From Candidatus Thorarchaeota archaeon SMTZ1-45 (lineage in GTDB: Archaea > Asgardarchaeota > Thorarchaeia > Thorarchaeales > Thorarchaeaceae), in the NCBI GenBank assembly GCA_001563335.1, contig LRSL01000054.1:1-48502 (forward strand): a stretch of 48,502 bases of DNA, in the 5' to 3' direction. Below, in pieces: positions 14,066 to 48,396 of this stretch. Positions within the stretch are counted from its first letter, which is position 1, and every line of letters starts with the position of its first letter. A program made the translations under genes and the position numbers. A model generated the notes under the pieces. It had not been told where the DNA came from. It saw only the letters and a list, made by a program, of their open reading frames with translations, and searched no databases.

Positions 14066-14085
14066 GATTTGGAGGAAACGATCAC

Positions 14086-14490
14086 ATGAAAATCGACAAT
14101 CGAATCAAGTTCATAGCCATGATGTTTATGGGCATAGTACTACTTACACTGGCAGTATTTGCAATTTCTATGGCGGATACTTCGACAGTTCTAAGAGCAC
14201 TAGGCGTACCAGTTGATAATGGGTATGTGCCCGCGCAACTTGCCGATGGAGACGGTTGGGCCATTCTTGGTCTTGGAATTGGTGCTGGTCTTGCCCTAGG
14301 TCTAGCTGGAATTGGTGCTGGTCTTGGAATGGGTACAGCTTCTGCAGCAGCACTCGGAGCCATCACCGAGAAACCTGAAACCTTCGGAAAGAGTATTCTA
14401 TATGTAGTATTCATCGAAGCTGTAGCAATCTATGGCTTTGTCATTGCATTCCTTCTTGTAGGATACATCCCCACTATTCTCGGTCACTAG
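14086..14490 (+). CDS. atpK: A/V-type ATPase proteolipid subunit K (c) with N-terminal hydrophobic extension
   Basis: GAGLALGLAGIGAGLGMG...GAITEKPETFGKSILYVVFIEAVAIYG with the ion-binding Glu. SD GGAGG precedes the ATG at 14086. Confidence 0.93.
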   Translation: MKIDNRIKFIAMMFMGIVLLTLAVFAISMADTSTVLRALGVPVDNGYVPAQLADGDGWAILGLGIGAGLALGLAGIGAGLGMGTASAAALGAITEKPETFGKSILYVVFIEAVAIYGFVIAFLLVGYIPTILGH

Positions 14491-14529
14491 TAAGACACAG
14501 AGAAACTAGTAGAGGTGATCTTCCTCCCT

Positions 14530-15159: not shown

Positions 15160-15163
15160 GACA

Positions 15164-15493
15164 TCATACCTCCCCTAGTAGGATCTTCACGACTGCTTGA
15201 TATGCTACATCCTTCTTCTTTTGGGCGGTTTCTTTCATTTTCTTTATGGTCTTCTCTGTTTCCTTGAAAACCTTTGATTCAATCTCCACCTTTCTACTCT
15301 CAATATCACTGAGCATTCTAGTAGCAGAGTCTTTTGCCTCTCTCTCTGCAACCTCGATAATCATCCTTGCTTCTTCGTCCGCATCCTCATGGATCTTACG
15401 TGCTTTCTTCTTAGCATCTTCGATTCTCTTTTTAGCTGCTTTCTCAGTTTCATGAATCTGGTCGATTTCATCGTGTGGGGTACTCATGACCAT
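15164..15493 (-). CDS. atpH: A/V-type ATPase subunit H/G (peripheral stalk)
   Basis: I..IHETEKAAKKRIEDAKKKA coiled coil ending in AVVKILLG; directly upstream of subunit E. Confidence 0.8.
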   Translation of the reverse strand: MVMSTPHDEIDQIHETEKAAKKRIEDAKKKARKIHEDADEEARMIIEVAEREAKDSATRMLSDIESRKVEIESKVFKETEKTIKKMKETAQKKKDVAYQAVVKILLGEV

Positions 15494-15662
15494 TCCTCAT
15501 AGTGCACGATAGTAGTTCATCACCGATACCATCCCCCTTTAAAGATTAATGTCAGCACGTAAAGGTTATTTAGAGCATAGGATGCATCCCGTGCTTACAC
15601 AGCTCAGTATAAAGTGCCACTTGGAACGTCAATTCTGAATCTGTGATACTGGTGATTATACA

Positions 15663-17822
15663 ATGAATCTTCGAATGAGTCCTCAGGAAATGATTGTGGC
15701 CAAGGTTGTTTCACATAAGGATTTTGAGAGACAGGTCTTGAAGTCAATAGAGGAATTCGCTCTCTTTGAATTCATTGATGTTCGACGACAAGCTGGAATT
15801 GTTGATGTTAAGAGGACACGCGAAGAGGAAACCGTTTACTCTGCTCTCGAACGATTGACAAAGATTCTCGAATCGCTTGAGATTGACAACACAAAACGGA
15901 CTGGAGTCTACACTGAGGTTGAGGATACAACACTTCAGAACTCACTTACACTAGCAGCAGAGGTTATCTCTGCTGTCGAAGCAGAGGTCCTAGATATTGA
16001 CTCCAAGGCAACGATAGCTCGCCTAGAGATGGAGCGTCAAAGGGGAATTGCTGATGTTGCTATGTCCCTTAAACCGCTTGGTATAGATCCTAGTTTTATT
16101 GGCACTACTGACTTCACATTCACCACTGCTGGAATTATTCCCTCAGGAAGAGAGTCTGAATTGGAATGGAGTATCAATGAGGTCACTGAGGGTGCTTTTA
16201 CAATAGGTCGACTACCACTGAAACGAGGGGGCTCTGCATGTGTCATCACTGTGCCTGTTGAACTGAAAGACGCTGTTGAACGAATTCTCTCTGCAATGCA
16301 GTTTGAAGCATTTGCTATTCCTGAAGACTCTGCAGGTCAACCAGAGAAGATTGTGACTGATGCTGAGAATCAGATTGCTGAATTGAAACAAGAGGTCGAG
16401 CAACTCGAGATCAGTAAAGAGCACATAGCACTGGAATGGGGGTCACGAATTCTAGCTGCTTGGGAAACCCTTGATATCGAGCGACGGAGAATTGACAAAA
16501 AGAGTTTCATTGTTTACACTGAGCAGTCTATAAAGATGTGGGGGTGGATTCCAGAGGGTAAGGAAGCTGAGCTAGAGTCTATTCTACATGCAAATGTGGG
16601 CCCTGCTCTCGAAGTGACCTTCGATAAGCCTGATTTCGCAGAGGTTGAGGCACCTACCTACATCTCAAACCCTTCATTCATGAAGCCAACAGAGGATGTT
16701 GTCAAGGCTTTTGGGATTCCCTCTCGACATGATTTAGACCCTACAAAGTTCATGGCACTCTCTTTCCCAATAATCTTCGGGTTGGTTTTTTCGGATGTTG
16801 GACAAGGTTTCCTGATCCTCCTCATTGGATATGCTGCCCTAAGAGCAAACAAGAAGGGTCAGGACTGGGGTTCTATTCTAGGATATGTCCAGAATGGAGC
16901 TCAAGGTTTGATGCTGATGGGCATTTTTGCGATGATAGGTGGGTTCCTGTTTGGGAGCTTTTTTGGCGCAGAAACCGTCATTGAACCCTTGTGGCCAATA
17001 TTTGCACATACTGATCCAAACCGTGCAACACATATGCTCAAACTCTCGATCGAAGTTGGAGTCATTCATATCTCATTGGGAATAATTCTGAGCCTCTATA
17101 ACGAATTGAAACACAAGCACAGACGAAAAGCCCTGATTGCAGTATCATATCTGTGGTTATATCTTGGCTTCATTAACCTTCTTTTTGGTGTTAGCTACAA
17201 TAGTATTGGAAGCTGGTTCTCTGCAACTGGTACCGTTTCCCTATGGCTTCCAATAATTGGTATTGGGTATGGTACCGGCTCTCACAATCCGTTTTATCCC
17301 GTCCTTCCAATAGCCCCGATGATGTTCACACTATTGATGTTTGTTATTCCACTTGTAATCATGATGATTGCCTCGTTTTTAGGAAAAATGGATGGCATTG
17401 TATATTTCTTAGAATATGTCATTGGAATGATTAGTCACACTGTCAGCTATGCACGTATCTTTGCGCTGAATACAGTCCACATTATCCTCAGCAGTGTATT
17501 CATTATACTTCCTGAGCTGTTCTTTATCTACTTCCCTCCCCTCTCATTGTTTGGGGTTGAGATTATTCCTCATGAAGTACATACTCTGCACTACAGTGGA
17601 GTACCAAGAATGCCTTTCCTTGGTGCTGCAATTGGTACATTAATAGTTGGAATTCTTGAGGGTCTCCTTGGATTTATGCACACACTCAGGTTACACTTTG
17701 TTGAGTGGTTCAGCAAGTTCTATCATGCTGGCGGTGTTGAGTTCCAACCATTCCGTGTGAAACGTCTACACACAGCGAAAATCACACCACAGGCTATTGC
17801 CTCAAACATTCCGGTTTCATGA
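15663..17822 (+). CDS. atpI: A/V-type ATPase subunit I (a)
   Basis: P.EM, GWIP, APT...NP, DPT....SFPIIFG..FSDVGQG, essential-Arg motif SHTVSYARIFAL, and LRLHFVEWFSKFY. Confidence 0.95.
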   Translation: MNLRMSPQEMIVAKVVSHKDFERQVLKSIEEFALFEFIDVRRQAGIVDVKRTREEETVYSALERLTKILESLEIDNTKRTGVYTEVEDTTLQNSLTLAAEVISAVEAEVLDIDSKATIARLEMERQRGIADVAMSLKPLGIDPSFIGTTDFTFTTAGIIPSGRESELEWSINEVTEGAFTIGRLPLKRGGSACVITVPVELKDAVERILSAMQFEAFAIPEDSAGQPEKIVTDAENQIAELKQEVEQLEISKEHIALEWGSRILAAWETLDIERRRIDKKSFIVYTEQSIKMWGWIPEGKEAELESILHANVGPALEVTFDKPDFAEVEAPTYISNPSFMKPTEDVVKAFGIPSRHDLDPTKFMALSFPIIFGLVFSDVGQGFLILLIGYAALRANKKGQDWGSILGYVQNGAQGLMLMGIFAMIGGFLFGSFFGAETVIEPLWPIFAHTDPNRATHMLKLSIEVGVIHISLGIILSLYNELKHKHRRKALIAVSYLWLYLGFINLLFGVSYNSIGSWFSATGTVSLWLPIIGIGYGTGSHNPFYPVLPIAPMMFTLLMFVIPLVIMMIASFLGKMDGIVYFLEYVIGMISHTVSYARIFALNTVHIILSSVFIILPELFFIYFPPLSLFGVEIIPHEVHTLHYSGVPRMPFLGAAIGTLIVGILEGLLGFMHTLRLHFVEWFSKFYHAGGVEFQPFRVKRLHTAKITPQAIASNIPVS

Positions 17823-17833
17823 CAGATTAAGAA

Positions 17834-20179
17834 TCATTGTTCCGCTGACCCAAGGTAGAGTGCAATAAGCTCAGTTTCGCCCTTCTCGCTTGGGTCTTGG
17901 TCTCTCTCTAGCCGTTGTCTGTTGTCCCAGATACTCCTTGCCAGTAGGTCCGTAGTCTTCGCACGATTATCGACATTCTGAGCTGCTTGTGCATCACCTA
18001 CTGACTGAAAGACCTGTGCTGCCACTGTATAGTTGCCAACAGCTTCTCGAAGCTGGTCGTTTGCATCTGTGTAATGCATCTTTGCCTTGGATTTCTTTCC
18101 TGTCTTGAACATGTATTCTGCCATGAAGTCACTTCGGGCTCCCAGGATTCTAGAGAGGTCTCCTTTGAACTTCATTACTACACCTTGAAGCTGCTTCACT
18201 TGAATCTCAACATTATTCCTGATACGTATCATTTCACCCTTCACGCTGTCAAGCTCATTAGCAGCCGACTCGAATGATGCTACAGTCTGCTTTATTCTAG
18301 ATATTGCCCCATCATGTATTTCCAACGCATCCTCAATTGGATCCTCCTCCTCGAGCTGTGCTAACTCATCCTCTAGTTTCCTGAAAGCATTCATCCTCTC
18401 GATCTGTGCTCTGAATGACCATTGCTCAGACTGTCTTGAATATACTTGTGCCTCTGAAGCGAAAGCTGTAGCCAATGCAAGCTTTCCTAAATCTGTAAGC
18501 TCTGCAGCCTTGGCTTTTTCACCAAGGACTTTGTAATATGAGGCTGCTTCAGCGGCGTGAAGATTCTCAAGAATACGGGACATGATGAACTTCACTCCAT
18601 GTGTCAGCTGAGAACTCAATTGAAACTGAATCATGTACTTGACATTATTGAGGAGTGCAAGTGTTCTGTTTCGAAGGTTTCCCACTTCTTGATCTTCCGC
18701 CTCAATGCTCAAAAGAATGCCCAGACTGTTTAGACCCTCGCGAATCGCATCCAGTGCTTCGGCTGGATTGCTTACCATTAGTTCCTCGGCTTCATCTAGG
18801 TCTTTGCCCACGTCTTGAATGAGCCCAGTCTTTCGAAGGTCTTTGGCAAACTCAATCTGGTCAATTATATTGCTGATATCGTCAGTCTTTTTCTTACGTT
18901 TGTCAAGAAGGTCCTTAACGAATGTGTATGTCTTTAGGTCCTCCTTGATGGCGCTAGTGAGTTCTCGTGTCTTCGCCAGTTTTTCTGCCCTTTCCAGATT
19001 TTTGAAAATGTCCTTCAAGACAAGATTTGCTTCGCTCTTATTGTTGAGCGTAATTAATTCTGAAAGAGTTTGTACACTTGCCTCCACGCTACAATACAGA
19101 GACTGGGCTTTCTTCTGCTCTTTGTCAATACGTGATTGCTCAGCATTGGTCTGAAGCGCAAGCACTTCTCTGAAACATTTCTCTGCCCGACCAAAGGCAT
19201 CAGAAGCCACTTGGTAGAGTTTTGAAGCGTCCTCTAAGTTACCTGCACGCATCTGAGCATCGGCAATGTCAGTGTAGGTCATGGCGAGGTATACCTCGCT
19301 AAGTCCTGCGGTGTTCTGTTTCCAGGATTTTATCATTGATAGTCTATCTTTTTCCTCACGTTTTTTTCCGAAGTGTGGAATCGCCTCATTGTAGAGGTCT
19401 GTTGCTTGTTCAAATATGAAAGAGCTAATGATGTCCCGCCAGACAAGCTCATCGAATGGATTGAATGCTTGTCTGAATGTGCTCTCTTGACTGATGAGTT
19501 CGTTCAAGAACTCGTCATAGAACTCAGCCTCCGCACTCTTGTTTCTTCCAAGTATGGATGAAAGCTCAGCATCTTTTGCTTCATGGCTCTCTTTCAAGAG
19601 GGCGTAGGCTTGCATACCTAGCGCAACTCGCCGGAGTTTTTGTGTCCCATCAACTTTCATAGGAACCGCAGAGAATGGTTTCTCGAGCATCGTATAGACT
19701 GCTGCAAGATACTTAGAAGCACTTTTCATCTTGTCCACATGTTCCTCCTCAACTAAAGGTCCACTTGCCGCGGCGGCTTGATGAAGCCATGCCATAACTC
19801 GAGCCATCCAAACATCAGCCAAGTTTCCCTGAGCCTGCGCTGTTAGCTCTTCAAGCGCTCCCTCGAGTTGTTTCTTAGCCTCTCCCTCACTCTGTGCAAT
19901 CCTATTTCTCAAGTATGCAAGATCAAAGTCATCAATCATGATCTGTTCACTGAAGGCTGCAATATTATCGTAAAGCTCTGTGAATGAGTCATGCATCTCT
20001 ATACGCTTTTTCTCAAGTCCCTCACGGTCATCTATATCATGGAGCGCAAACTCTCTCACAGCATCTTGTGCTTTAATATTCTGCTCGAAAAGTAGACTAG
20101 TAAAAATTGTAGTATCGTCTATATCAGCGTCATCCTGTTGACTTGCTTTCTTCTTCGAGCCAGGTAGAACATCACTCAA
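17834..20179 (-). CDS. Large all-alpha-helical hypothetical protein (TPR/SNAP-like solenoid suspected)
   Basis: 781 aa, Ala/Glu/Leu/Lys-rich, very few Pro. Repeated A...Y..A...F...G patterns. TTG start preceded by SD GGAGGA. Confidence 0.75.
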   Translation of the reverse strand: MSDVLPGSKKKASQQDDADIDDTTIFTSLLFEQNIKAQDAVREFALHDIDDREGLEKKRIEMHDSFTELYDNIAAFSEQIMIDDFDLAYLRNRIAQSEGEAKKQLEGALEELTAQAQGNLADVWMARVMAWLHQAAAASGPLVEEEHVDKMKSASKYLAAVYTMLEKPFSAVPMKVDGTQKLRRVALGMQAYALLKESHEAKDAELSSILGRNKSAEAEFYDEFLNELISQESTFRQAFNPFDELVWRDIISSFIFEQATDLYNEAIPHFGKKREEKDRLSMIKSWKQNTAGLSEVYLAMTYTDIADAQMRAGNLEDASKLYQVASDAFGRAEKCFREVLALQTNAEQSRIDKEQKKAQSLYCSVEASVQTLSELITLNNKSEANLVLKDIFKNLERAEKLAKTRELTSAIKEDLKTYTFVKDLLDKRKKKTDDISNIIDQIEFAKDLRKTGLIQDVGKDLDEAEELMVSNPAEALDAIREGLNSLGILLSIEAEDQEVGNLRNRTLALLNNVKYMIQFQLSSQLTHGVKFIMSRILENLHAAEAASYYKVLGEKAKAAELTDLGKLALATAFASEAQVYSRQSEQWSFRAQIERMNAFRKLEDELAQLEEEDPIEDALEIHDGAISRIKQTVASFESAANELDSVKGEMIRIRNNVEIQVKQLQGVVMKFKGDLSRILGARSDFMAEYMFKTGKKSKAKMHYTDANDQLREAVGNYTVAAQVFQSVGDAQAAQNVDNRAKTTDLLARSIWDNRQRLERDQDPSEKGETELIALYLGSAEQ

Positions 20180-27983: not shown

Positions 27984-29042
27984 TCAATGAATCTCTCGCG
28001 AAGATGCTCTGAGATAGCTGACACTAGTTAGCGCCGCATAGACCAAGAATGCAAGCCAGATAATTGCTGTAATTAGCAGCAGGTCTGTCTTAAAGAACAA
28101 CTCAACAACTAAGAAGAGACCTATCACAAACAGGTTTGAAACTCCACCTATTGTCGTGTCATTCTGGACCTTGAGGACAAATTTCACGATATACATGATC
28201 CCAACTATTGACAACGAAATCCAGTTTATGATGCTGGTGAACAGAATGGATTGATTCAAGAATGGAATTGTGCCTAGTGGAGTAGGGATCGGTGGAAGAT
28301 ATAGAATCAGAAACACCATGAAGAGGATGAACTCCAGAAGGCGTATCCATCCTGCGGGTGTTTTAGTGTAAACCTCACCATAAAGCCCCCTGTCATATTC
28401 TTGTGCTCCAAAGTAGATGAAATAGATGGGTGCTCCAAAACTAAGTGCGTTGACCAAGCATTGAGCGAAACCATATACAACCTGTAACCAAAACGACTCC
28501 CATGTCGCTAGTATGTATTCCCAAACATCTAAGTAGCTTGGAAGGAACTCAAGCATAACGAAGGTGGGAAGTATGCAAAGGGCAAGCGCTCCGAGTACAG
28601 CAAGTGCTGCTCCAGGCTTGCCACCACCGAACTTTCCTATACCAATCCTGTAAAACACAGTTCCTGCGACAAAGAGGCCAAGTATAATCGCCAAGGGTGG
28701 AGTAGTCATTGGCAATACAAACAGCATAAGCACGAAAGCCGCGTTGATTCCATAGAACACCCGCCATCTGAGTGGAACACTAGAAATGGTCTCATCCATT
28801 ATGTGTACTGTATTTGCCAACCTATACCGTTGATAGTAGATCAGTCCAAGCCATGGTGCAGAGAATACAATTGGGACTGCAATGTAGTGGAAAAGCCAAT
28901 CAAGCAGTGTATCTCCAAATGGCATCATTTGTGGTATGAATAGCATTAGTAAAAAGAAATAAACTGGCCCAATTATTGCGAGCAGGACGACTGCAACCCG
29001 TGTGGCTATCCAATCCGGACTCACTTTGACTTCTCCATGCAT
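27984..29042 (-). CDS. Hypothetical polytopic membrane protein
   Basis: 352 aa with about 9-10 hydrophobic segments and no recognised motif. Confidence 0.75.
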   Translation of the reverse strand: MHGEVKVSPDWIATRVAVVLLAIIGPVYFFLLMLFIPQMMPFGDTLLDWLFHYIAVPIVFSAPWLGLIYYQRYRLANTVHIMDETISSVPLRWRVFYGINAAFVLMLFVLPMTTPPLAIILGLFVAGTVFYRIGIGKFGGGKPGAALAVLGALALCILPTFVMLEFLPSYLDVWEYILATWESFWLQVVYGFAQCLVNALSFGAPIYFIYFGAQEYDRGLYGEVYTKTPAGWIRLLEFILFMVFLILYLPPIPTPLGTIPFLNQSILFTSIINWISLSIVGIMYIVKFVLKVQNDTTIGGVSNLFVIGLFLVVELFFKTDLLLITAIIWLAFLVYAALTSVSYLRASSREIH

Positions 29043-31385: not shown

Positions 31386-33101
31386 TTAGAAAAAGAAGTT
31401 CACGAATATTGTAGCTCCATTTTTCATTGGACCAATATAGGCTCGTTCAAATGGTCCGAAGAGGTCTGAGAATCCAGAGTTTATTGCCCACTCTATCCAT
31501 GCCCATGACGATTCTTGTCCCAATTTATTCTCAGAATATTGCCCAAATTGCCAGGACAAATACCGTTCCAAATCTAGTTTTTGAAACTGGAGCTTTTCAT
31601 AAGCATCTCCTGATGCTTGTGCAATCTTGCTATCGATATTCTCTAGACTTTCGTTTAGACTCGCATGAGTATCAAGAATTAGTTTCTTCAAATTGACAAG
31701 CTGTTTGTTCATCTCATCAAATTGGTTCTTTCTTCTACACTTGGAAATCTGTCCCGTCAGTTTGAACATATCCTTACTATGAAAGACCTCAACACCTTCA
31801 AACTCAAGACTCTTAGCTAGTTCCTCATTCCATGGTGTGTTAAAGTAAACTCTCGGATATTTGATGAACAGTGGGAAAGGAATCTCCATTGCTCTTGTAG
31901 ATGGAATAACTTGCGCATAATATGCTGTTTCTCCAGGACCCCCAACATGTACTACTGTTGGAATGAGTGTGTCAATCAAAATCTGTCTAGTATCTACTCG
32001 TGGTGACAGTTGAGCCGCAATCTCTCCAAGATATGGGCTATCTGTTGAAGTTTCAATTTCGATTGACTCGGAGCAAGATGGACACTTGCCTGTCAGAACA
32101 GCTGTAGCTCCTAGGTCCTCATAATGGAGCTCTGTTCGACTATTGTTACATCCTGGATTAGGACACTCATAAAAGAAGGGAACATAATCCGTGCCTCTAC
32201 GTCCAATTCCTGGTTCATATCCGTGAAACTCAATGAGATCTGTCATTTCGTCGAAAGTGTTCAGAAACCGTTCTCTGTTATTTCTTACAAGTAGAAACTC
32301 CATTCCCTCAACAAGAAGCTCGCGTACCTCTTTTTCAGAAGCAATGAGTAAAGGTATGCCAAGATCCCCTACTATATTGAATAAGTATGCAATAATCCTT
32401 TCTGCCCACTCTCCAAGTGTCTTAGAGTTATAGAACGCGCTCCTAATAATTGTCAACGATTGTTCAAGACGCTCCTCGAATAATATTCGCGCATGTTGTT
32501 CTAGATTCTTGAACATAGGTCTGTAATTACTTCTGATGTCATCTTCAACATGGCTTAGCCAATCATTCTCTGGTAGTGGCAGAACACTAACAGGCGAGTT
32601 CTCAAAATCCTGAGGGACAGGTATACTGATTAAATTCCCATCTTTACCCATTAAAGGAGTTCGAATGTTTGTTAACTCTGATTGCACAGTATCATAATCT
32701 GCAAAGCAAAAGAATGGTACTAGAGGAACACCTTGGTTGGCTGCGAGAGTTGCGACTTGAGCTGCTGTTGTTGCCTTGTTCAAAATATAAGCTGGTCCCC
32801 CCATCACGACTGGTTGGTGTGCAGATTCTACTGCGCCTATATCCAGTTTCTCTATGTTCTCTCTGACTTTAGGTGTCAAAGAACCTAGTTTTTTATTGCT
32901 TTCAACAAGTGCCTTCTTGAGAGAACTCATTTTCTCTGGAATATGCCAGAGCATGTCTTCGTATGAATCCAGAAGCGCAGGGACTCTATCAATAATACCG
33001 TCAAGGGTAAGTGGAGGTGTATTATAGAGATTTTTAGCAAGTTCTGCCCTTTGTCCATTCCAGATGAATTCCTCATAGACTTTGTATACACTAGGGCTCA
33101 A
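31386..33101 (-). CDS. bshC: Bacillithiol biosynthesis cysteine-adding enzyme BshC-like
   Basis: ESAHQP..MGGPAYILNK, VPFF..ADYD and LSP.VDTR....DTLIPTV.HVGGPGETAYYAQ match BshC motifs. Co-oriented 12 bp downstream of bshA. Confidence 0.8.
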   Translation of the reverse strand: MSPSVYKVYEEFIWNGQRAELAKNLYNTPPLTLDGIIDRVPALLDSYEDMLWHIPEKMSSLKKALVESNKKLGSLTPKVRENIEKLDIGAVESAHQPVVMGGPAYILNKATTAAQVATLAANQGVPLVPFFCFADYDTVQSELTNIRTPLMGKDGNLISIPVPQDFENSPVSVLPLPENDWLSHVEDDIRSNYRPMFKNLEQHARILFEERLEQSLTIIRSAFYNSKTLGEWAERIIAYLFNIVGDLGIPLLIASEKEVRELLVEGMEFLLVRNNRERFLNTFDEMTDLIEFHGYEPGIGRRGTDYVPFFYECPNPGCNNSRTELHYEDLGATAVLTGKCPSCSESIEIETSTDSPYLGEIAAQLSPRVDTRQILIDTLIPTVVHVGGPGETAYYAQVIPSTRAMEIPFPLFIKYPRVYFNTPWNEELAKSLEFEGVEVFHSKDMFKLTGQISKCRRKNQFDEMNKQLVNLKKLILDTHASLNESLENIDSKIAQASGDAYEKLQFQKLDLERYLSWQFGQYSENKLGQESSWAWIEWAINSGFSDLFGPFERAYIGPMKNGATIFVNFFF

Positions 33102-33113
33102 AGTAGTTCTCTC

Positions 33114-34286
33114 CTACTTAGATAGTATATCCTCGAAGACTCTCTCGTACATACTCACAACACGTTCCGCAGCGAATGAGTCCTCAACGCGTTTTCTACC
33201 GGCTTTTCCTAAGTTTTTCCGTTTTTCATCATTCTCCAGTAACTCAATAATCGCTTGCGCATACTCTTCTTGGTCAAATCCTTTCGTGACCATTCCATCT
33301 GTCCCTGGACGAACTAATTCAGGAATTCCTCCCGCTGGAGTCGTGATTACAGGAAGGCCGCATGCCATCGCCTCAAGCAGCACAAGCGGCATTCCCTCCA
33401 ATGTTGAGTTTAGCAGGAATAGGTCTGCAGAGCACATAATCTCCTGCATATTGCTCTTAACACCAAGTAGGTGAATATTATTACATAGATCTAACGCCTC
33501 TATTTTCCTTTCAACCTCAATACGTGTTGGTCCATCACCTGCAATAATCAATCTGGCTTTTTGAAAGTGGTCCACCACTATTCTCATTATTTCAACGAGT
33601 TCGACGACTCGCTTTACTTTTCGGAAGTTGGATGCATGTAACAGTATCTTCTCTTCTGGATTGAGCTCAATAGCTTCCTCCTCCTTTCGAAGTCCCACAC
33701 AACCACTTTCAACATAGAGTCGTACACCATTCAGGTGTGAGAATTTTGTGATGTCAATAAAGTTTGGAATCACATGTATCTCTCGCTCAATCCCGAGTTC
33801 CTCATGTGCTTTTTTCTTCAAAAATTCCGAAACCGCTGTTACAGCATCTGCTTTTTCGATAGTGTGTTGAACAACTGGTTTGTATGCAGGGTCTTGACCC
33901 AAAGAGTGAACATCTGAACCATGTAGTGTCACTACATACGGAATTCCAGCAATCTCTCGTGCCATGTAGGCGGCCATTGCATGTGGAATTGCGTAATGTG
34001 CATGGATTAGATCAAGCTTCGAGTCTGTCGCAACTTTGATTATTTTTGATGTTAGAGCCATAGCATAAGGTGGTCCAGTTCCCTCAAAGAGAGGATATTC
34101 AAAGCTATCCACTAGGTCTACGTGTACTCCTCTCGTCTGTTCCCACATAAGAGAGAACGGCCTCTGGTAAGTGATGAAGTGGATAATGTGGCCTCTATGG
34201 GCTAATTCTTGACCCAGTCGCGTTGCAAGGTAACCACTGCCGCCAACTGTGGGATATAGATTAACTCCAATCCTCAAGTAGTACAC
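33114..34286 (-). CDS. bshA: N-acetyl-alpha-D-glucosaminyl L-malate synthase (GT4)
   Basis: YPTVGGSG.LAT.LGQELA.RGH.IHFIT, FE..PY.MALTSK, HAHYAIPHA, TLHGSD and HASNFRKVKRV are BshA-diagnostic. Confidence 0.9.
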   Translation of the reverse strand: MYYLRIGVNLYPTVGGSGYLATRLGQELAHRGHIIHFITYQRPFSLMWEQTRGVHVDLVDSFEYPLFEGTGPPYAMALTSKIIKVATDSKLDLIHAHYAIPHAMAAYMAREIAGIPYVVTLHGSDVHSLGQDPAYKPVVQHTIEKADAVTAVSEFLKKKAHEELGIEREIHVIPNFIDITKFSHLNGVRLYVESGCVGLRKEEEAIELNPEEKILLHASNFRKVKRVVELVEIMRIVVDHFQKARLIIAGDGPTRIEVERKIEALDLCNNIHLLGVKSNMQEIMCSADLFLLNSTLEGMPLVLLEAMACGLPVITTPAGGIPELVRPGTDGMVTKGFDQEEYAQAIIELLENDEKRKNLGKAGRKRVEDSFAAERVVSMYERVFEDILSK

Positions 34287-34383
34287 CTACCTTCTCCCTG
34301 AGCTGGCTGTCCCTTTAAGGCAAATGGTTTGGACAACTCATGGTTGCCAAACCTTGATTAGAAGGTGTTCGGGAAGTTGTTTT

Positions 34384-35052
34384 ATGAGCGGTTCGGATGA
34401 GGGAACAATTCTCGTAGTCGTCGCACATCCTGATGATGAGTGCATTGGAGCTGGTGGAACCATAAAGCGACATGTGGACCAGGGTGTGAATGTTGATGTT
34501 CATTGTATGACAGGAAATGATGAGCGTAATGCAGAGCTTCAAAGAGCCTGTGAAATTCTTGGTGTGCGAAATCTGTACCTGAGTGAGCGGGATGATTTTG
34601 CAATTGGTCTGGAACTCACAAACGAGGTAGTCGGAGCAATTCTAAAATCACGTCCCAATTTCATCATCACTCATCATTCCTCTGATTACAACCGCAACCA
34701 TCAGCAGTGTGCAACGATTGTCAGCCAGGCGGCTGAGTGGGCGTCACATGTTACGATCTTTGATGATGCACATAGAGTAGAGCGTATCTACAATATGGAG
34801 ATCAACACAATGATCTCTAGACCCAATGTGCATGTTGATATTACCGCGTCTTATCCTACAGCTTTGGCTGCTCTCAAGAAGCACAAGTCCCAGGTAAAGA
34901 AGGCTGACTCCTACTATGAACAACTATATGATGCAAGAACACGACTACGTGGAGTCCAAGCGAACTGTGAGAGAGCTGAAGCTTTTTCAATAACCCTTCC
35001 AGAACATGCTGGTCCTTTCTATGAGAAAAATAGTGTAGAAAGTCTATTTTAG
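34384..35052 (+). CDS. bshB: PIG-L/LmbE-family deacetylase, probable BshB
   Basis: VVAHPDDE..GAGG, R.AE...A..ILG, VDIT, H.SQ and RG......AEAF; divergent from bshA. Start trimmed to the ATG at 34384. Confidence 0.78.
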   Translation: MSGSDEGTILVVVAHPDDECIGAGGTIKRHVDQGVNVDVHCMTGNDERNAELQRACEILGVRNLYLSERDDFAIGLELTNEVVGAILKSRPNFIITHHSSDYNRNHQQCATIVSQAAEWASHVTIFDDAHRVERIYNMEINTMISRPNVHVDITASYPTALAALKKHKSQVKKADSYYEQLYDARTRLRGVQANCERAEAFSITLPEHAGPFYEKNSVESLF

Positions 35053-35061
35053 CTCAATCCA

Positions 35062-35469
35062 TTACTCCGGACCTTCAGTCTTTCTTCTACGAGCTGCCAA
35101 GAGGGCTTTTAATTCTCCCATCATACTCATACCACCACCAGGCGCACCTGCTGGTTTGGGAGTGGGTGCTCTAGCCATGGTTGGAATTGGTTCCGCGCCA
35201 GCTGCAGGGGCTGCTGCAGGTCCTCCGGTTGATGCTGCCGCCGCAGGAGCGCGAGCTGCCATGGATGACATCCTGTTTTCCAGTGCATCAACTTTACTCT
35301 CTAAATCCATGACGGAAATCTGCAGGTTAGTTATAGCTTCAGTCAACTTAGTCGTGATTATACTGACTACTTCTCCAAGCTGCCGGATTTTTTCCTCGTT
35401 TGGATCCTTCAGTGCCCATTCGAATTCTCCAAGAATTTCTTCTTCAAGTTCTTTCTTTTCATCCGGCAT
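35062..35469 (-). CDS. Coiled-coil / Ala-Pro linker / basic amphipathic helix protein (WH2- or VASP-FAB-like C-terminus)
   Basis: 135 aa with heptads LTEAITNLQISVMDLESKVDALENRM, a low-complexity APAAA..PTPKP linker and GGGMSMMGELKALLAARRRK. TATA-like TTTATA about 45 bp upstream. Confidence 0.75.
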   Translation of the reverse strand: MPDEKKELEEEILGEFEWALKDPNEEKIRQLGEVVSIITTKLTEAITNLQISVMDLESKVDALENRMSSMAARAPAAAASTGGPAAAPAAGAEPIPTMARAPTPKPAGAPGGGMSMMGELKALLAARRRKTEGPE

Positions 35470-35530
35470 TATATTGACCCCAATATTTCAGATTGAAAAG
35501 CTGCAGTTCCGCTATAAACCTTGTTTGGAG

Positions 35531-37812: not shown

Positions 37813-37932
37813 TTCATATTATAAATAGACCATATCTTACCAGTCGGCATAATCTTACGAAACCTTATTAGTCGCATAGACCCTCTATCGCTTTGTCGTC
37901 GTACCGCCTACCACATATGGGTGACTATACAC

Positions 37933-38481
37933 ATGAGCAGCTCTTACGATTACCTGTTTAAAATCGTCGTGTTAGGAGAGGGCGCAGTAGGAAAAACAGC
38001 AATAGTCACTCGATTCTCGCATGGTTTCTTCCGGACTGACTATAAAACCACTATTGGAAGTCAGTTCGCTGTCAAAAATGTCAACATCCCCCGTGATGCT
38101 GGTGATGTCACTGTGAAGCTGCAGATCTGGGATGTCGCTGGGCAAAGCCGATTCCAAATTCTTCGGCCCATGTACTACCGTGGGTCAAGTGGTGGTCTTC
38201 TCGTGTATGATGTTACTCGACGAAGGACCTTCATAGTACTTGAAGAATGGCTTGAGGAGCTTCATAAGGCATTAAACAAAGAAATTCCTCTCGTACTAGT
38301 GGCGAACAAGACAGACCTTCCTGACAGGGTGGTTGAACCTTTAGAGGGGCGCGACTTTGCTGATAGGCACGGAATGCCCTATATCGAGTCTTCTGCTAAG
38401 ACTGGAGAGGGTATTATTGATATCTTCAGTGAGCTTGCAGAAATTCTAGTGGTAACTCGTGAAAAGGGCGGCAACTACTAA
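37933..38481 (+). CDS. Rab-like small GTPase (Ras superfamily)
   Basis: YDYLFKIVVLGEGAVGKT (G1), TIG (G2), WDVAGQ (G3), NKTD (G4) and ESSAK (G5). Confidence 0.95.
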   Translation: MSSSYDYLFKIVVLGEGAVGKTAIVTRFSHGFFRTDYKTTIGSQFAVKNVNIPRDAGDVTVKLQIWDVAGQSRFQILRPMYYRGSSGGLLVYDVTRRRTFIVLEEWLEELHKALNKEIPLVLVANKTDLPDRVVEPLEGRDFADRHGMPYIESSAKTGEGIIDIFSELAEILVVTREKGGNY

Positions 38482-38550
38482 TCTACTATCAGCAATTTTT
38501 GTAGACATCTCAACTAATATCAGTGTAAGTTTTTGATGTGAATTAGCACA

Positions 38551-39132
38551 ATGAGCAAGCCTGACGAATCACATCCAGTAAATGCAATTCCCCCATTAGC
38601 TTGGGCTCTGGAACTCTATCTGAAAGCAGGTGGCAAGTTCAGAGAGGGCAAAATGATTGAGCTCATTTTTCCAGTCGGAGACCATAGGGAAATGATGAGG
38701 AAGAAAGGAGCGCATGACATCTACATGTGGTTCTCAAAGGGTAAAATCAATCTCCGTTCAAGATGCAACTTTGATAAAGCTTGCAGTTTCAACTCTGAGA
38801 GGATAGATGGAGCTGACAGAGAGGCTGTGAAGAGCTTAGAGTGGGGCGAAGCCCGAGCTGACACCTTTTTCAAAGCTCTTCGAAAATGGATAGTTCGTCT
38901 TGATCTTGATTTTGTTACATTCATCAGGGCACTCAATACTGTGTGCGACAAACGTGTGGAGATTCCATTAACCACAAAGTATGGTCGAACATTTCAGAAG
39001 TTTGATGAGTATCGCAGGAACCGTTGGCCTGAGGATGCAACTCCAGACAATCGCGAGCGGTTCATCGAAGAAGTACTTGTTCGAGTCGCATTCTGGATAC
39101 AGTCAGCTCATCAAGTTGGTGCACTGAAATGA
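38551..39132 (+). CDS. Hypothetical protein
   Basis: 193-aa ATG-started ORF filling the gap between the GTPase and the kinase; no motif recognised. Confidence 0.75.
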   Translation: MSKPDESHPVNAIPPLAWALELYLKAGGKFREGKMIELIFPVGDHREMMRKKGAHDIYMWFSKGKINLRSRCNFDKACSFNSERIDGADREAVKSLEWGEARADTFFKALRKWIVRLDLDFVTFIRALNTVCDKRVEIPLTTKYGRTFQKFDEYRRNRWPEDATPDNRERFIEEVLVRVAFWIQSAHQVGALK

Positions 39133-45774: not shown

Positions 45775-46045
45775 CGAGGTCTCATTAGACATTCCAAAGG
45801 GAGTTAAAGCCAGCTCAGTGATGGAATTCCTAGGGAGGGGTCATGGATATACCTGGTGGACTGTATCAAGAGAACCTGTGTATATGGTTCTTGGTCATCC
45901 CTCTAAGAGCGATCACCCTGAGGTTGTCATACTGAAAGACTCACTCGTAGTCCACACCTCCAGTGAGAATATGCTGATGAGAATGGAAACAATGCTTGAT
46001 GTGCTGGCACGTCAAGTCAAGAGTGGAACGAGAGGTGGAGTCTAG
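45767..46045 (+). CDS. Small hypothetical protein
   Basis: 92 aa with a GTG start after GGAGG; overlaps both neighbours. Confidence 0.65.
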   Translation: MDNEVSLDIPKGVKASSVMEFLGRGHGYTWWTVSREPVYMVLGHPSKSDHPEVVILKDSLVVHTSSENMLMRMETMLDVLARQVKSGTRGGV

Positions 46046-48396
46046 TGGCAAGGAAAAGAGGGAACATCATGGGCTCCAAACCTGCACAAGACCCAATGGA
46101 TCAACTAGAGAGTGCACGCATGAGCATAACCACAGACACTCAAATCCGATGGGATGACCGATCTGTGAAGCCATCATGGGACTATATCTTTTGGCTCTCG
46201 CTTCTTGTAATGGCCTGTGTTTTGTGGTTTCCTTATTTGACAATCATCACAACTAGCATAGTACTAGCAATCATGCTCTTTCTACCATCAATCCAGAGGT
46301 ATCTCGAACTTCGCACCTTGAGTGATATTGATTGGTATGAGGTCCCTCAACCGGATGTGGATTTTGAAAAGAAGGAGAAGTCGCTTCTAAGTCAGGGTGC
46401 AGGTGATGAGAAGCACATCATTGCATTGAACATGAAGAAAGCACAATCCAACCTTCAGGGTGACTTGGGAAAGCTACTGAGAGGTCTTGACACATCACAC
46501 GGTTTCTTGTTGCTAGTGGATCTATTTCCAATAGAATCAAGTCACATTGTAAAGGATGGTGTGGTAACAGGTCCTATCGAGCGCTATCTTGATTATCTCT
46601 CATCATCTCAAAGGAAGGCTTACTTCCACAAAAGAGGCGGTGTTTGGCAGTCACAGCTATACTTTGTAGGACACTCTCGTACAGATCTTGAAGCCAGACT
46701 CATCGAGGGACAGTTTAAGGGAAGTGTTCCAGATGGAGGGCTCAAGAGGATAAAAGAAGAAGACCTCAGTCACAGACTAAAGCAGTGGGACCTGTGTGGT
46801 GGGTTTCCCTCCTTCTTTGCCACTGGAGATGAACTCTCAAATTGGCTTGTTCAGTTACCAAGTGAGCTTGGTCCCGAGGTAGGCAGTAATGTTCCAGGTG
46901 AATTTATTGCTCCAATCCGCAGTCGATCAGACGATTACCCACTGGGTGTAGTTGTGAACCCGGAAACACTCAAGACTGGTCCTTCTGTAGGACTCATGCA
47001 CTCAGACCTTGAACGGGGACTGCTTCTCTGTGGGGGTGATTGGAGGGATAGAAAACATGTTCTCAGCGTCTTGATAGACCATATTCTAGCTAAAGGGAAA
47101 CGGATCTTACTTGTTACTGTGAATGAGGACATGCTAGGACTAGCTGGTCTCAGACCAGAAGGTATGGTTTTAACCCTAGGTAAAGACCTCGTTCTGAATC
47201 CTGTAGATTCTGATGGGATACCAAGAGCTAAGTTTGTTTCTGAGCTACTCCTTTCTTTAGAAACCATTGCAGGAACGAACCTAAGCCCCGCGGCGGACTT
47301 TGAGATAGCACTAAGCAGAGTTGTATCGTTGGGGAATGGTACACTTGCTGATATTGTGATAGACTCGGAACATGAGGCGCTACAAGATGGTTCTACAACA
47401 CAACAGTCTATTCGAATATCAAAAGCCTCTGCTCTTGCTCTTGATGCCATAAAGCGATTACATCAGGGCTCTGGAGCAAAAGCATTCTACGGTACTCAAA
47501 CAGTATCTATGAATAGACTCACATCGCAAAGCCTTGCAGTTGTATTGTTGACAATTGGTGCATTTGACCTTGACATGTTTGCCATGGATCTCATGAGTTT
47601 GAAGTTGTCTGGGCTGCCGCCAGACCCAAATCTCGTAATCATTATCGATACTCCTGAACATCTGAATGTTGCAAAAACTGCTTTCAGATACACCAAAAGA
47701 GGCATCCTGTCAGAGCGTATAGCAAGAGCGTTTGTTAAGAGAGGTCCTCTCGTGCTAAGCACCAAGAATCCCTCAGCTTTGGAGTGGGACACCTCAGACG
47801 TACTAGGGTCATGTATCGCTTTAAGAATGAGGGAGTCTGCAGATATAGCGAATATCTCTGATATTCTGTCATTGAATGTTGTCAGTGGTGGAATACACAG
47901 TAAGGCAAGGCAGTCTTCCCGGGAGAGTTCATTCCTGAGAGTGATGGATCGAGGATATGCTCTCATGACCCATGAGCAGGCAAAGACTTGCATGCCCATC
48001 AAGATAGCACCCCCTCCTGAATTAAGGACAGTATCCAATGAGGGGGTAGACCTGCTAACTAGGTCTGAATCGCTTGGAGATGCATATTTAGAATCGTCAG
48101 ATAGACCTACTACACTCATAGAACAAATAGGTGGACGAGACAGTGAAGCTGTGAAGGAAGTACTTAGACTTCTAACACGATATGAACCCCTTACAGAAGA
48201 GTCGGTGAAGCGTTTCCTAATTGCCAAAGGGGGTGCAGATGTTGATGTTGAAGCCATTCTTTCAAGACTCGAGAATGCCAGTATGATCCTAAGAGGTCAC
48301 GAGATTCACACTGGAGTGTCCTACAAAAACTACCGGATTACTATGAAGGGGAGTATGGCACTAAGAAATGCAGAGGTGGTGAGTTCCGAAGGATGA
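46045..48396 (+). CDS. Membrane-anchored HerA/VirB4-like protein with degenerate Walker motifs and C-terminal winged helix
   Basis: N-terminal TM hairpin. DLERGLLLCGGDWRDRK occupies the Walker A position, with LVLNP, LVIIIDTPEH at Walker B and LVLSTKNPSAL...CIALRM. C-terminal LLTRYEPLTEE...LSRLENASMI...YRITMKG. Confidence 0.7.
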   Translation: MARKRGNIMGSKPAQDPMDQLESARMSITTDTQIRWDDRSVKPSWDYIFWLSLLVMACVLWFPYLTIITTSIVLAIMLFLPSIQRYLELRTLSDIDWYEVPQPDVDFEKKEKSLLSQGAGDEKHIIALNMKKAQSNLQGDLGKLLRGLDTSHGFLLLVDLFPIESSHIVKDGVVTGPIERYLDYLSSSQRKAYFHKRGGVWQSQLYFVGHSRTDLEARLIEGQFKGSVPDGGLKRIKEEDLSHRLKQWDLCGGFPSFFATGDELSNWLVQLPSELGPEVGSNVPGEFIAPIRSRSDDYPLGVVVNPETLKTGPSVGLMHSDLERGLLLCGGDWRDRKHVLSVLIDHILAKGKRILLVTVNEDMLGLAGLRPEGMVLTLGKDLVLNPVDSDGIPRAKFVSELLLSLETIAGTNLSPAADFEIALSRVVSLGNGTLADIVIDSEHEALQDGSTTQQSIRISKASALALDAIKRLHQGSGAKAFYGTQTVSMNRLTSQSLAVVLLTIGAFDLDMFAMDLMSLKLSGLPPDPNLVIIIDTPEHLNVAKTAFRYTKRGILSERIARAFVKRGPLVLSTKNPSALEWDTSDVLGSCIALRMRESADIANISDILSLNVVSGGIHSKARQSSRESSFLRVMDRGYALMTHEQAKTCMPIKIAPPPELRTVSNEGVDLLTRSESLGDAYLESSDRPTTLIEQIGGRDSEAVKEVLRLLTRYEPLTEESVKRFLIAKGGADVDVEAILSRLENASMILRGHEIHTGVSYKNYRITMKGSMALRNAEVVSSEG

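What the first reader, a model, noticed from the sequence alone, without database searches (positions are those of the whole stretch)
35062..35469. Small protein with an Ena/VASP-FAB/WH2-like actin-binding helix after a Pro/Ala linker and a coiled coil
Seen: an N-terminal coiled coil, a disordered Ala/Pro linker (PAAAPAAGAEPIPTMARAPTPKPAGAP) and C-terminal GGGMSMMGELKALLAARRRKT (motif at about nt 35080-35139). Known (recalled): the VASP F-actin-binding segment reads approximately [20 protein letters not shown], and WH2/C helices of WASP-family proteins have the same amphipathic-helix-plus-basic layout, usually after Pro-rich profilin-binding tracts. Asgard archaea encode actin, profilin and gelsolin. 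Inference: an oligomerising, multivalent actin binder, possibly a minimal ancestor of VASP/WASH-type polymerases or nucleation factors. The coiled coil also loosely recalls Brick1/CCDC53 (weak).
Basis: partly seen in the sequence, partly recalled or inferred. Interest (0 to 1): 0.85.

Follow-up and report, generated by a model that had tools for sequence, protein, structure and literature searches.

The report
Asgard coiled-coil protein with actin-binder-like tail
A small, strongly conserved protein of Asgard archaea has a coiled-coil stalk, a flexible proline-rich arm and a very conserved short basic helix at its end, a layout like that of eukaryotic actin-assembly factors, but it shows no detectable homology to them and its binding partner is untested.

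Summary
ORF 35062-35469(-) encodes a real 135-aa protein under purifying selection, with its own conserved TATA-type promoter. It has a helical N-terminal domain with a significant heptad seam, a disordered Ala/Pro/Gly linker, and a C-terminal helix (residues 116-131) ending in RRRK.

The C-terminal motif is the most conserved part of the family. Over 162 proteins, L(+1) and R(+8) are invariant. Every taxon label is Asgard (Thorarchaeota, Helarchaeota, Promethearchaeota, one Hermodarchaeota) except one Bathyarchaeota-labelled short contig.

A divergent subtype places two to three tandem runs of five or more prolines directly before the same helix, and some members add a poly-Asp tail.

Against homology: no WH2, VASP, FH1, WASP or Brick1 signal in Pfam, NCBIfam, PDB sequence or profile searches, Foldseek or the ESM Atlas. 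The canonical WH2 LKKV leucine is absent. No actin-related gene is linked.

Best reading (confidence about 0.35): an oligomeric scaffold whose proline-rich arm and hydrophobic-plus-basic helix act on actin, analogous to PRD-WH2, VASP FAB or formin DAD modules. It works like them but is not a member. The main rival is the same scaffold with another partner.

The parts
35062..35469 (-). Complete ORF (135 aa plus stop), P0001
   Evidence: Purifying selection, 80:51:367 differences at codon positions 1:2:3 against 11 orthologues. 313 homologues with E<=0.01. 65 genome loci.
35509..35526 (-). Conserved archaeal promoter-like element AAACAAGGTTTATAGCGG (TATA core at 35513-35518), 43 nt upstream of the ATG
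   Evidence: The core is invariant in 14 of 14 aligned upstream regions, which are the window plus 13 of 65 loci. Its function as a BRE/TATA element is inferred from position and sequence.
35477..35481 (-). GGGGT, a ribosome-binding-site-like element 7 nt upstream of the ATG
   Evidence: G80, G81 and G83 are invariant in the 14-sequence alignment. Function is inferred.
35410..35463 (-). Helix 1 (residues 3-20) with the conserved FEWAL.DP block
   Evidence: AF2 model. F16, E17, W18, L20, D22 and P23 are >=90% conserved in A3.
35251..35403 (-). Helix 2 (residues 23-73), a coiled-coil or helical-bundle seam
   Evidence: AF2 block-mean pLDDT 94-96 for residues 31-60. Heptad-type periodicity, with 0 of 5000 shuffles reaching it.
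35125..35250 (-). Disordered Ala/Pro/Gly linker (residues 74-115)
   Evidence: 31 of 42 residues are A/P/G (read from the sequence). No secondary structure and low pLDDT. High column entropy and indels across the family.
35152..35193 (-). Semi-conserved proline motif EPIPTMARAPTPKP (residues 93-106)
   Evidence: EPIPTM is conserved among the close Thor-type proteins. P102 and P106 are 92% conserved across 24 non-redundant members of all subtypes.
35077..35124 (-). C-terminal helix (residues 116-131) carrying the family motif phi-[MQ]-x-E-L-K-x-L-[LF]-[AS]-x-R-[RK]-[RK]-K
   Evidence: Helix 116-131 in the AF2 model. L120 and R127 are in 162 of 162 proteins, E119 in 161 and K121 in 160. These are the lowest-entropy columns of the protein.

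Best explanation
The gene encodes a small cytoplasmic scaffold specific to Asgard archaea. Its N-terminal two-helix domain, with a long heptad-patterned helix, is inferred to self-associate. Each chain then projects a flexible proline-containing arm ending in a 15-residue helix that has a hydrophobic face (M116/M117, L120, L123/L124) followed by a basic cluster (R127-K130).

I propose that this terminal helix is a short linear motif that docks on Asgard actin, most plausibly in or near the hydrophobic groove used by WH2 domains and by arcadin-2. I also propose that the preceding proline motif recruits profilin or profilin-actin. That motif is PxPxP in Thorarchaeota and full tandem polyproline in the divergent subtype. 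Several arms on one stalk would then tether, bundle, nucleate or feed growing filaments, as clustered PRD-WH2 modules, Ena/VASP and formin tails do.

Shown: the gene is real and has its own promoter, the three-part anatomy holds, the terminal motif is extremely conserved, the family is restricted to Asgard, and a sister subtype has polyproline.

Inferred: oligomerisation, the identity of the partner (actin, profilin), and any effect on polymerisation. This is functional analogy, not family membership.
For: (1) The anatomy is conserved in three subtypes down to about 22-28% identity. AF2 models of P0001 and of polyproline-type P0162 both give a short helix, a long helix, about 40 disordered residues and a C-terminal helix.

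(2) The C-terminal motif is the most conserved element and always lies 0-12 residues from the C-terminus. This is the signature of a partner-binding linear motif.

(3) In the third subtype, 14 of 18 proteins have at least 2 runs of at least 5 prolines, about 20-25 residues upstream of the helix. In the Helarchaeota-type, 12 of 16 have at least one P4 run. P102 and P106 are 92% conserved family-wide.

(4) PRD plus WH2 is sufficient for actin polymerase activity when clustered (PMC5753033, abstract). The VASP FAB and formin DADs are described as hydrophobic-plus-basic WH2-like motifs (PMC3034019 passages; PMC12871907 passages).

(5) A Thorarchaeota profilin and a Heimdall profilin bind polyproline weakly (PMC8410842 passages).

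(6) There is an archaeal precedent: the conserved C-terminal helix of arcadin-2 binds crenactin's hydrophobic groove (PMC5173319 passages).

(7) Distribution is Asgard only, apart from one probably mis-binned label, and Asgard archaea are the prokaryotes with eukaryote-like actin.

(8) The field currently lists only profilins and gelsolins as Asgard actin regulators and notes the absence of formin or Ena/VASP polymerases, so a functional niche is open.
Against: There is no statistically supported similarity to any actin-binding motif.

- Pfam WH2, VASP and FH1 models: no hit at E<=10 for P0001 or for 13 divergent members. None appears among the 25 of 75 families listed for 18 members.
- NCBIfam: only noise.
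- C-terminal profiles against 177,635 PDB sequences: only chance hits, namely CgeA, designed coiled-coil peptides and plastocyanin.
- Foldseek against the PDB: best E = 4.7.
- ESM Atlas: no named look-alike.

The canonical WH2 LKKV box is absent. The residue before the basic cluster is A, K or R in 161 of 162 proteins. In PMC12871907, an mDia1 DAD lacking that Leu did not pull down actin.

The window's own Thor-type protein has no polyproline run; 0 of 128 Thor-type proteins have P>=4.

No actin, profilin or gelsolin gene was found in the window or among the 65 flank proteins scanned from the 65 loci. Conserved synteny is with metabolic genes and reflects block-wide collinearity.

Short hydrophobic-plus-basic helices are generic and also bind membranes, nucleic acids, MIT domains and other targets.

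The named, significantly enriched proteins in the Lokiactin co-IP text are actin, an Arf GTPase, a profilin and five gelsolin-homology proteins. I did not see the full table.
Confidence: 0.35

Rival explanations
1. The scaffold logic is the same (oligomeric stalk, flexible arm, terminal linear motif), but the terminal helix binds a different hub protein. Candidates are the MIT domain of Vps4 (MIM1-like helix preceded by a Pro-rich MIM2-like stretch), the N-domain of Cdc48, a small GTPase, or an as yet unknown Asgard protein.
For: The extreme conservation of a C-terminal helix argues for a specific protein partner but does not identify it. The C-terminal position, Leu spacing and basic end loosely recall ESCRT-III MIM1 tails, and a Pro-rich stretch before it recalls MIM2; both consensus forms are recalled and were not checked in a call. 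A Ras-family GTPase gene is syntenic 2.4 kb away in 45 of 65 loci. No actin-motif profile matches.
Against: No Snf7/ESCRT-III domain or other ESCRT signature appears in the N-terminal part. No ESCRT, Vps4 or Cdc48 gene was found in the window or among the 65 flank proteins scanned. Nearly invariant E119 and K121, and Leu in place of Arg at the central position, do not fit the recalled MIM1 consensus. Tandem P5 tracts in the sister subtype are not a known feature of MIM-bearing proteins. Synteny with the GTPase is part of a 15-kb collinear block.
Confidence: 0.28
2. The terminal helix plus polybasic cluster is a membrane-targeting sequence. The protein would be a peripheral membrane coiled-coil scaffold or spacer, with the Pro-rich arm acting only as a semi-rigid tether.
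For: The hydrophobic residues followed by R-[RK]-[RK]-K resemble polybasic or amphipathic lipid anchors. Its position at the extreme C-terminus is typical of membrane-targeting sequences of bacterial cytoskeletal proteins (recalled). Polyproline can act as a rigid spacer.
Against: Amphipathic periodicity of the helix is not significant; 41% of shuffles reach it. The helix is Ala-rich, with few large hydrophobic residues. A nearly invariant Glu (161 of 162), an invariant Leu and a nearly invariant Lys indicate stereospecific recognition rather than bulk lipid binding. Six members add a poly-Asp tail directly after the basic cluster, which would repel anionic membranes.
Confidence: 0.14
3. The protein is a self-assembling structural coiled-coil protein in which the basic C-terminus mediates higher-order assembly or autoinhibitory back-binding to its own N-terminal domain. 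This would parallel a formin DAD binding its DID, or baculovirus P10, which is recalled to have a coiled coil, a Pro-rich region and a basic tail.
For: Weak, sub-threshold hits recur to coiled-coil families including NPV_P10, Baculo_PEP_C, ZapB and LPP. The N-terminal block FEWAL.DP..E.. is conserved beyond what a plain coiled coil needs. DAD motifs have dual autoinhibitory and actin roles.
Against: All of those Pfam hits are far below the gathering thresholds. There is no direct evidence for filament formation or for an intramolecular contact. The monomer model has pTM 0.31, so the placement of the helices relative to each other is not reliable.
Confidence: 0.1
4. The basic C-terminal helix binds nucleic acid or the ribosome, so the protein would be a small RNA-, DNA- or ribosome-associated factor.
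For: An RRRK-type cluster. The layout of a stalk, a flexible Ala/Pro linker and a conserved C-terminal peptide resembles ribosomal P-stalk proteins. The only PDB sequence hits to the linker region are uL10/P0 linkers, at E 0.67-5.
Against: The uL10 hits are low-complexity linker matches and are not significant. The motif differs from the recalled archaeal stalk tail. The invariant hydrophobic positions and the Glu are atypical for nucleic-acid binding. The poly-Asp tails in six members would oppose it. There is no linkage to translation or nucleic-acid genes beyond general synteny.
Confidence: 0.06

Closest known systems
WASP-family PRD-WH2 module (distributive actin polymerase)
   Same: A proline-rich or polyproline tract lies immediately N-terminal to a short helix-plus-basic actin-motif-like element. 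It acts when several copies are clustered (PMC5753033 abstract). Six members of the polyproline subtype also end in an acidic tail, superficially like the A region.
   Different: There is no profile or sequence similarity. The LKKV-box Leu is absent. There is no C region, and no Trp in the acidic tail. There is no WH1, GBD or SHD domain. Clustering here would come from an N-terminal coiled coil rather than membrane recruitment.
Ena/VASP (EVH1, Pro-rich region, EVH2 with GAB, FAB and tetramerisation coiled coil)
   Same: It combines an oligomerising coiled coil, a Pro-rich region and a hydrophobic-plus-basic motif of the kind described as WH2-like for the FAB (PMC3034019 passages).
   Different: There is no EVH1 domain. 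The coiled coil is N-terminal, not C-terminal. There is one motif instead of GAB plus FAB. No detectable homology was found.
Formin C-terminal tail / DAD (WH2-like)
   Same: A short C-terminal motif with an N-terminal hydrophobic Leu-rich part and a C-terminal basic part forms a single helix in isolation. It lies downstream of polyproline (FH1) tracts and has roles in actin nucleation (PMC12871907 passages).
   Different: There is no FH2 or DID domain. The hydrophobic box reads LxxL[LF] rather than LLxxL. Non-canonical DADs such as that of mDia1 did not bind actin in that paper's pull-down.
Arcadin-2 of Pyrobaculum (crenactin regulator)
   Same: It is an archaeal protein whose conserved C-terminal alpha-helix (last 17 residues) is the sole actin-binding element. 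It docks in the hydrophobic groove and has no sequence similarity to eukaryotic actin binders (PMC5173319 passages).
   Different: Arcadin-2 is encoded in the arcade cluster next to crenactin, whereas this gene is not linked to actin. Arcadin-2 binding relies on a Trp, and none is present in this motif. The sequences were not compared here, because the peptide is shorter than 20 residues and so is not in the PDB set searched.
Asgard gelsolins with an internal WH2-like linker (LRRV / LKDV)
   Same: They are Asgard proteins in which a short WH2-like basic motif contacts actin (PMC7444086 passages; bioRxiv 10.1101/2025.11.30.690169 passages).
   Different: Those motifs keep the Leu-basic-basic-Val box and sit between gelsolin domains. 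This protein has no gelsolin domain and no LKKV-type box.

Membership tests
WH2 domain (Pfam PF02205) | Match to the family profile | tested here: not met
   No WH2 hit at E<=10 for P0001 or for 13 divergent members. None among the 25 of 75 families listed for 18 members. HMMER filters drop most matches above E of about 0.1, so very weak matches could be hidden.
WH2 domain | N-terminal hydrophobic helix with an LLxxL/I-type box (definition from PMC12871907) | tested here: inconclusive
   The helix is predicted. The hydrophobic positions phi(-3), L(+1), L(+4) and [LF](+5) are conserved in 159-162 of 162 proteins, but the box reads LxxL[LF], not LLxxL.
WH2 domain | LKKV box: an invariant Leu directly followed by a basic dipeptide, then usually V/T | tested here: not met
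   The residue directly before R(+8) is A (128), K (20), R (13) or L (1) of 162. The conserved L/F lies three residues upstream.
WH2 domain | Binds the G-actin barbed-end cleft | not testable with these tools
Ena/VASP | N-terminal EVH1 (WH1) domain | tested here: not met
   The N-terminus is two helices. There is no WH1 hit.
Ena/VASP | EVH2 with GAB, FAB and a C-terminal tetramerisation coiled coil (PMC3034019) | tested here: not met
   There is a single motif. The coiled coil is N-terminal. No VASP_tetra hit was found.
Ena/VASP | Central proline-rich region that binds profilin | tested here: inconclusive
   Tandem P5 runs occur in 14 of 18 third-subtype proteins but in 0 of 128 Thor-type proteins, including the window's. 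Binding was not testable.
Formin (FH1-FH2-DAD) | FH2 domain | tested here: not met
   No FH2 hit, and the protein is 135 aa.
Formin DAD-type motif | Short C-terminal motif: a hydrophobic Leu-rich part followed by a part containing at least a basic dipeptide | tested here: met
   L(+1), L(+4) and [LF](+5) are followed by R(+8) and [RK](+9) in 162 of 162 proteins. This layout is generic and does not establish homology.
WASP/WAVE VCA | V (WH2), C helix and an acidic A region containing Trp | tested here: not met
   An acidic tail is present in only 6 listed proteins, without Trp, and is absent from the window protein.
ESCRT-III (MIM-bearing) | Snf7-type core domain | tested here: not met
   No Snf7 hit at E<=10. 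The helical domain is only about 70 residues.
Brick1/HSPC300 or CCDC53 | Match to the family profile | tested here: not met
   Neither is listed among the sub-threshold coiled-coil hits shown.

The most novel reading that the evidence does not exclude
This family is the first archaeal actin-assembly factor of the PRD-plus-WH2-like kind: a minimal, coiled-coil-clustered polymerase or nucleation-promoting protein. Its polyproline-helix tandem would be the evolutionary precursor, not merely a convergent analogue, of the PRD-WH2/FAB/DAD modules of eukaryotic WASP, Ena/VASP and formin tails. That would place the origin of profilin-coupled filament elongation before eukaryogenesis.
Probability: 0.08. 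Interest if true: 0.95.

Novelty: new variant of a known kind. Interest (0 to 1): 0.74.

Why it matters
Asgard archaea build dynamic actin structures and crawl. In the papers I read, the only regulators discussed are profilins and gelsolins, and polymerases such as formins and Ena/VASP are treated as absent. What nucleates and elongates Lokiactin-type filaments is therefore an open question.

This family gives a concrete, cheap test. A 25-30-residue peptide and a 135-aa protein can be assayed against Asgard or rabbit actin and Asgard profilin.

A positive result would add a new class of archaeal actin regulator. It would also show that the polyproline-plus-short-helix logic predates, or arose independently of, eukaryotes. 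A negative result would still leave a near-universal Thorarchaeota protein with a strikingly conserved terminal motif whose partner is worth finding.

Tried and rejected
1. Co-folding of two copies of residues 1-76 with alignment A3 returned no answer: score 0.13 and 0.10 against a mark of 0.42, and the controls were not run. It counts neither for nor against self-association.

2. Co-folding with cognate actin was not possible. No actin, profilin, gelsolin or Vps4 is in the window, nor among the 65 flank proteins I scanned. Those 65 came from 258 non-window ORF clusters, and I chose clusters with at least 2 members or representatives of at least 200 aa, 109 in all, of which 65 were sent.

3. 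The search for longer, fused forms of the C-terminal module examined 65 candidates. The only hit, P0135, is a read-through of the upstream phosphohexomutase gene on a 2.1-kb contig and is not informative.

4. Gene neighbourhood: PGM lies upstream in 62 of 65 loci and PIG-L downstream in 64 of 65. The whole block from NAD kinase to OMP decarboxylase is collinear, so no specific functional link can be drawn.

5. Foldseek against the PDB gave nothing (best E = 4.7).

6. The ESM Atlas found only unnamed archaeal clusters for P0001 and no usable named hit for P0162.

8. The first search for related loci attempt, with the divergent alignment A1, failed for lack of a conserved stretch. The successful scan used Thor-type motif patterns, so it could only recover Thor-type loci.

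9. Brick1/CCDC53 and BLOC1_2-type resemblance: only sub-threshold coiled-coil noise, so rejected.

10. I did not open the supplementary co-IP and proteome tables of the crawling-motility study. bioRxiv supplements are closed and the 2026 Nature paper postdates the held supplements. They could show whether a homologue co-purifies with Lokiactin.
Full report
WHAT IS THERE

The quoted linker is residues 84-110. The quoted C-terminal string is residues 111-131, nt 35077-35139.

It is a genuine gene. Against 11 orthologues, nucleotide differences in the first 72 codons fall 80:51:367 at codon positions 1:2:3. The 61-nt spacer after the upstream phosphohexomutase gene contains AAACAAGGTTTATAGCG about 43 nt before the ATG and GGGGT 7 nt before it. 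Both cores are invariant in 14 of 14 aligned upstream regions, which are the window plus 13 of the 65 loci. I read these as an archaeal BRE/TATA promoter and a ribosome-binding site (inference).

The window is from a Thorarchaeota-type Asgard genome. The closest labelled relatives and 47 of 65 syntenic loci carry that name.

ANATOMY

AlphaFold2 with a 40-sequence alignment gives helix 3-20, helix 23-73 (10-residue block-mean pLDDT 94-96 for residues 31-60), no structure for 74-115, and helix 116-131.

The long helix carries a conserved 3-4 hydrophobic seam from residue 28 to 70, with one stutter near 42-46. The spectral power at period 3.5 is reached by 0 of 5000 shuffles. Self-association through this helix is therefore likely but was not shown.

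The linker is 31 of 42 Ala/Pro/Gly residues and is variable in length and sequence across the family.

The terminal helix is only weakly amphipathic by family-averaged hydropathy; 41% of shuffles match it.

THE FAMILY

A word-indexed search found 313 proteins at E<=0.01. The 120 listed are 64-90% identical. Of the 18 with a taxon label, 15 say Thorarchaeota, 2 Promethearchaeota and 1 Bathyarchaeota. The last is a partial protein on a 1266-bp contig, 81% identical to the window protein, and is probably mis-binned.

An exhaustive HMMER pass over 1.84 billion representatives found 14 proteins at E<=0.001, all with the family's sequence features.

A profile of the divergent members found 35 proteins. 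Four are labelled: three Helarchaeota and one Promethearchaeota.

One scan of species genomes recovered 65 loci: 47 Thorarchaeota, 6 Promethearchaeota, 1 Hermodarchaeota and 11 unclassified archaeon. That scan used Thor-type motif patterns, so it could only find this subtype.

Three subtypes share the same architecture:
- Thor-type: FEWAL.DP head, Ala/Pro/Gly linker, MMGELK.LLAARR.K tail.
- Helarchaeota-labelled type: PPPP-K-P-x-P-K-P, then SARAALQSELK.LFARRKQ at the very end.
- A third type: two to three tandem runs of five or more prolines (four runs of at least four in one protein), then SLRGSIMDELKSLFSKR[KR], and in six proteins a poly-Asp tail.

An AF2 model of a third-type member shows the same layout: helices 2-12 and 16-82, disorder at 83-126, helix 127-148.

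THE MOTIF

Over 162 family proteins the tail reads phi-[MQ]-x-E-L-K-x-L-[LF]-[AS]-x-R-[RK]-[RK]-K. L(+1) and R(+8) are in 162 of 162, E(0) in 161, K(+2) in 160 and L(+4) in 159. The motif always lies 0-12 residues from the C-terminus.

In 24 members non-redundant at 70% identity, these are the lowest-entropy columns of the whole protein, lower than the coiled-coil core. Two prolines about 13-17 residues upstream (P102, P106) are 92% conserved.

The motif occurs once in the window and nowhere else in the 65 loci.

This pattern is what a partner-binding short linear motif on a flexible arm looks like (inference).

The two computational refutation criteria were passed: the motif is conserved, and no homologues appeared outside Asgard archaea.

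The polyproline subtype is new circumstantial support. Runs of at least 5 Pro occur at least twice in 14 of 18 third-type proteins, and P4 runs occur in 12 of 16 Helarchaeota-type proteins, but in 0 of 128 Thor-type proteins.

The literature supports the functional logic:
- The abstract of PMC5753033 states that a proline-rich sequence binding profilin-actin plus a WH2 suffices for polymerase activity when clustered.
- Passages of PMC3034019 describe the VASP GAB as WH2-homologous and the FAB as proposed to be WH2-like.
- Passages of PMC12871907 define WH2 and formin DAD motifs as a hydrophobic Leu-rich part followed by a basic part.
- Passages of PMC8410842 report weak polyproline binding by a Thorarchaeota and a Heimdall profilin.
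- Passages of PMC5173319 show that the conserved C-terminal helix of arcadin-2 docks in crenactin's hydrophobic groove.

AGAINST HOMOLOGY AND MEMBERSHIP

- Pfam shows only sub-threshold coiled-coil noise for P0001, for 13 divergent members, and among the 25 of 75 families listed for 18 members. No WH2, WH1, VASP_tetra, FH1/FH2, Snf7, Brick1 or CCDC53 appears.
- NCBIfam shows noise.
- phmmer against the PDB shows coiled-coil and uL10-linker noise.
- Two C-terminal profiles against all PDB sequences return only chance hits.
- Foldseek's best E is 4.7.
- The ESM Atlas gives only unnamed archaeal clusters for P0001 and no usable named hit for P0162.

By the definition in PMC12871907, a WH2 needs an invariant Leu directly before the basic dipeptide. 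Here that position is Ala, Lys or Arg in 161 of 162 proteins. The same paper reports that an mDia1 DAD lacking this Leu did not pull down actin.

The domain order is the reverse of Ena/VASP, and only one motif is present.

The protein is therefore not a member of the WH2, Ena/VASP, WASP or formin families. What survives is a hydrophobic-plus-basic layout shared with the DAD and FAB class, which is generic.

CONTEXT

The neighbours are a BshC-like gene, a GT4 glycosyltransferase, a PIG-L deacetylase, a phosphohexomutase, an alpha/beta hydrolase, a Ras-family GTPase, NAD kinase and RadA. The rest of the window is metabolic and housekeeping.

The order is conserved across the 65 loci: PGM in 62, PIG-L in 64, GT4 in 58 and Ras in 45. 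Because a block of about 15 kb is collinear, this says little about function.

None of the 65 non-syntenic flank proteins I scanned is actin, profilin, gelsolin or Vps4.

The only longer protein carrying the tail is a read-through of the upstream gene.

VERDICT

The most likely mechanism is an oligomeric scaffold whose proline-containing arms and terminal hydrophobic-basic helices engage actin, with profilin on the proline tracts. That would make it an archaeal analogue of PRD-WH2, VASP and formin-tail modules. I give this about 0.35.

The strongest rival, at about 0.28, keeps the scaffold logic with a different protein partner. Membrane targeting (0.14), self-assembly or autoinhibition (0.10) and nucleic-acid or ribosome binding (0.06) follow.

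In five full-text searches and the papers read from them, I found no description of this family or of any Asgard VASP-, WASP- or formin-like factor. Two 2025-2026 texts state that Asgard archaea seem to rely mainly on profilins and gelsolins, and they discuss formin and Ena/VASP polymerases as belonging to eukaryotic migration machinery.

The decisive experiments are simple and are listed under next steps.

Noticed in passing
window 31386-35052: A BshC-like gene (31386-33101, -), a GT4 glycosyltransferase (33114-34286, -) and a PIG-L family deacetylase (34324-35052, +) sit together. This is the gene trio of bacillithiol-type low-molecular-weight thiol synthesis, here in an Asgard archaeon. They are conserved in 49, 58 and 64 of 65 loci respectively.
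   Followed up: partly
window 37921-39132: A Ras/Rab-like small GTPase (37921-38481, +; Pfam Ras 7e-49) is followed by a conserved 193-aa ORF with no Pfam family (38551-39132, +). They are syntenic in 45 and 42 of 65 loci. The second ORF could be a GTPase partner.
   Followed up: no
L016:1384-7527: In one Thorarchaeota genome a 2047-aa ORF with a Fascin domain (32.4 bits, cutoff 23.1), NHL and bacterial TSP3 repeats is inserted in the block upstream of the target gene.
   Followed up: no
P0135 (protein record; 2.1-kb contig): A 472-aa protein fuses the upstream phosphohexomutase with the complete target protein by translating the intergenic spacer. It is probably a lost stop, a sequencing error or a gene-calling artefact.
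   Followed up: yes
window 35477-35526 (-): A very strongly conserved promoter-like element (AAACAAGGTTTATAGCG) and a GGGGT site lie upstream of a small gene that follows another gene on the same strand by only 61 nt. This suggests independent, possibly strong, transcription.
   Followed up: partly
window 13001-17822: A/V-type ATPase subunit genes are split over both strands: C/AC39, proteolipid c, E, G/H-like and I.
   Followed up: no
window 17834-20179, 46045-48396, 27984-29042: Three large ORFs (781, 783 and 352 aa) have no Pfam family at the thresholds used. The 352-aa one is conserved in 39 of 65 loci.
   Followed up: no
L026:1288-4416: A formate-tetrahydrofolate ligase and a RuBisCO large-chain homologue lie next to the conserved block in one Thorarchaeota genome.
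   Followed up: no
family-wide: Sub-threshold Pfam hits to baculovirus P10 and PEP_C recur: Baculo_PEP_C in 7 of 18 and 4 of 13 members, NPV_P10 in 2 of 18 and 1 of 13. This is likely coiled-coil composition, though P10 is recalled to share the layout of a coiled coil, a Pro-rich region and a basic tail.
   Followed up: partly
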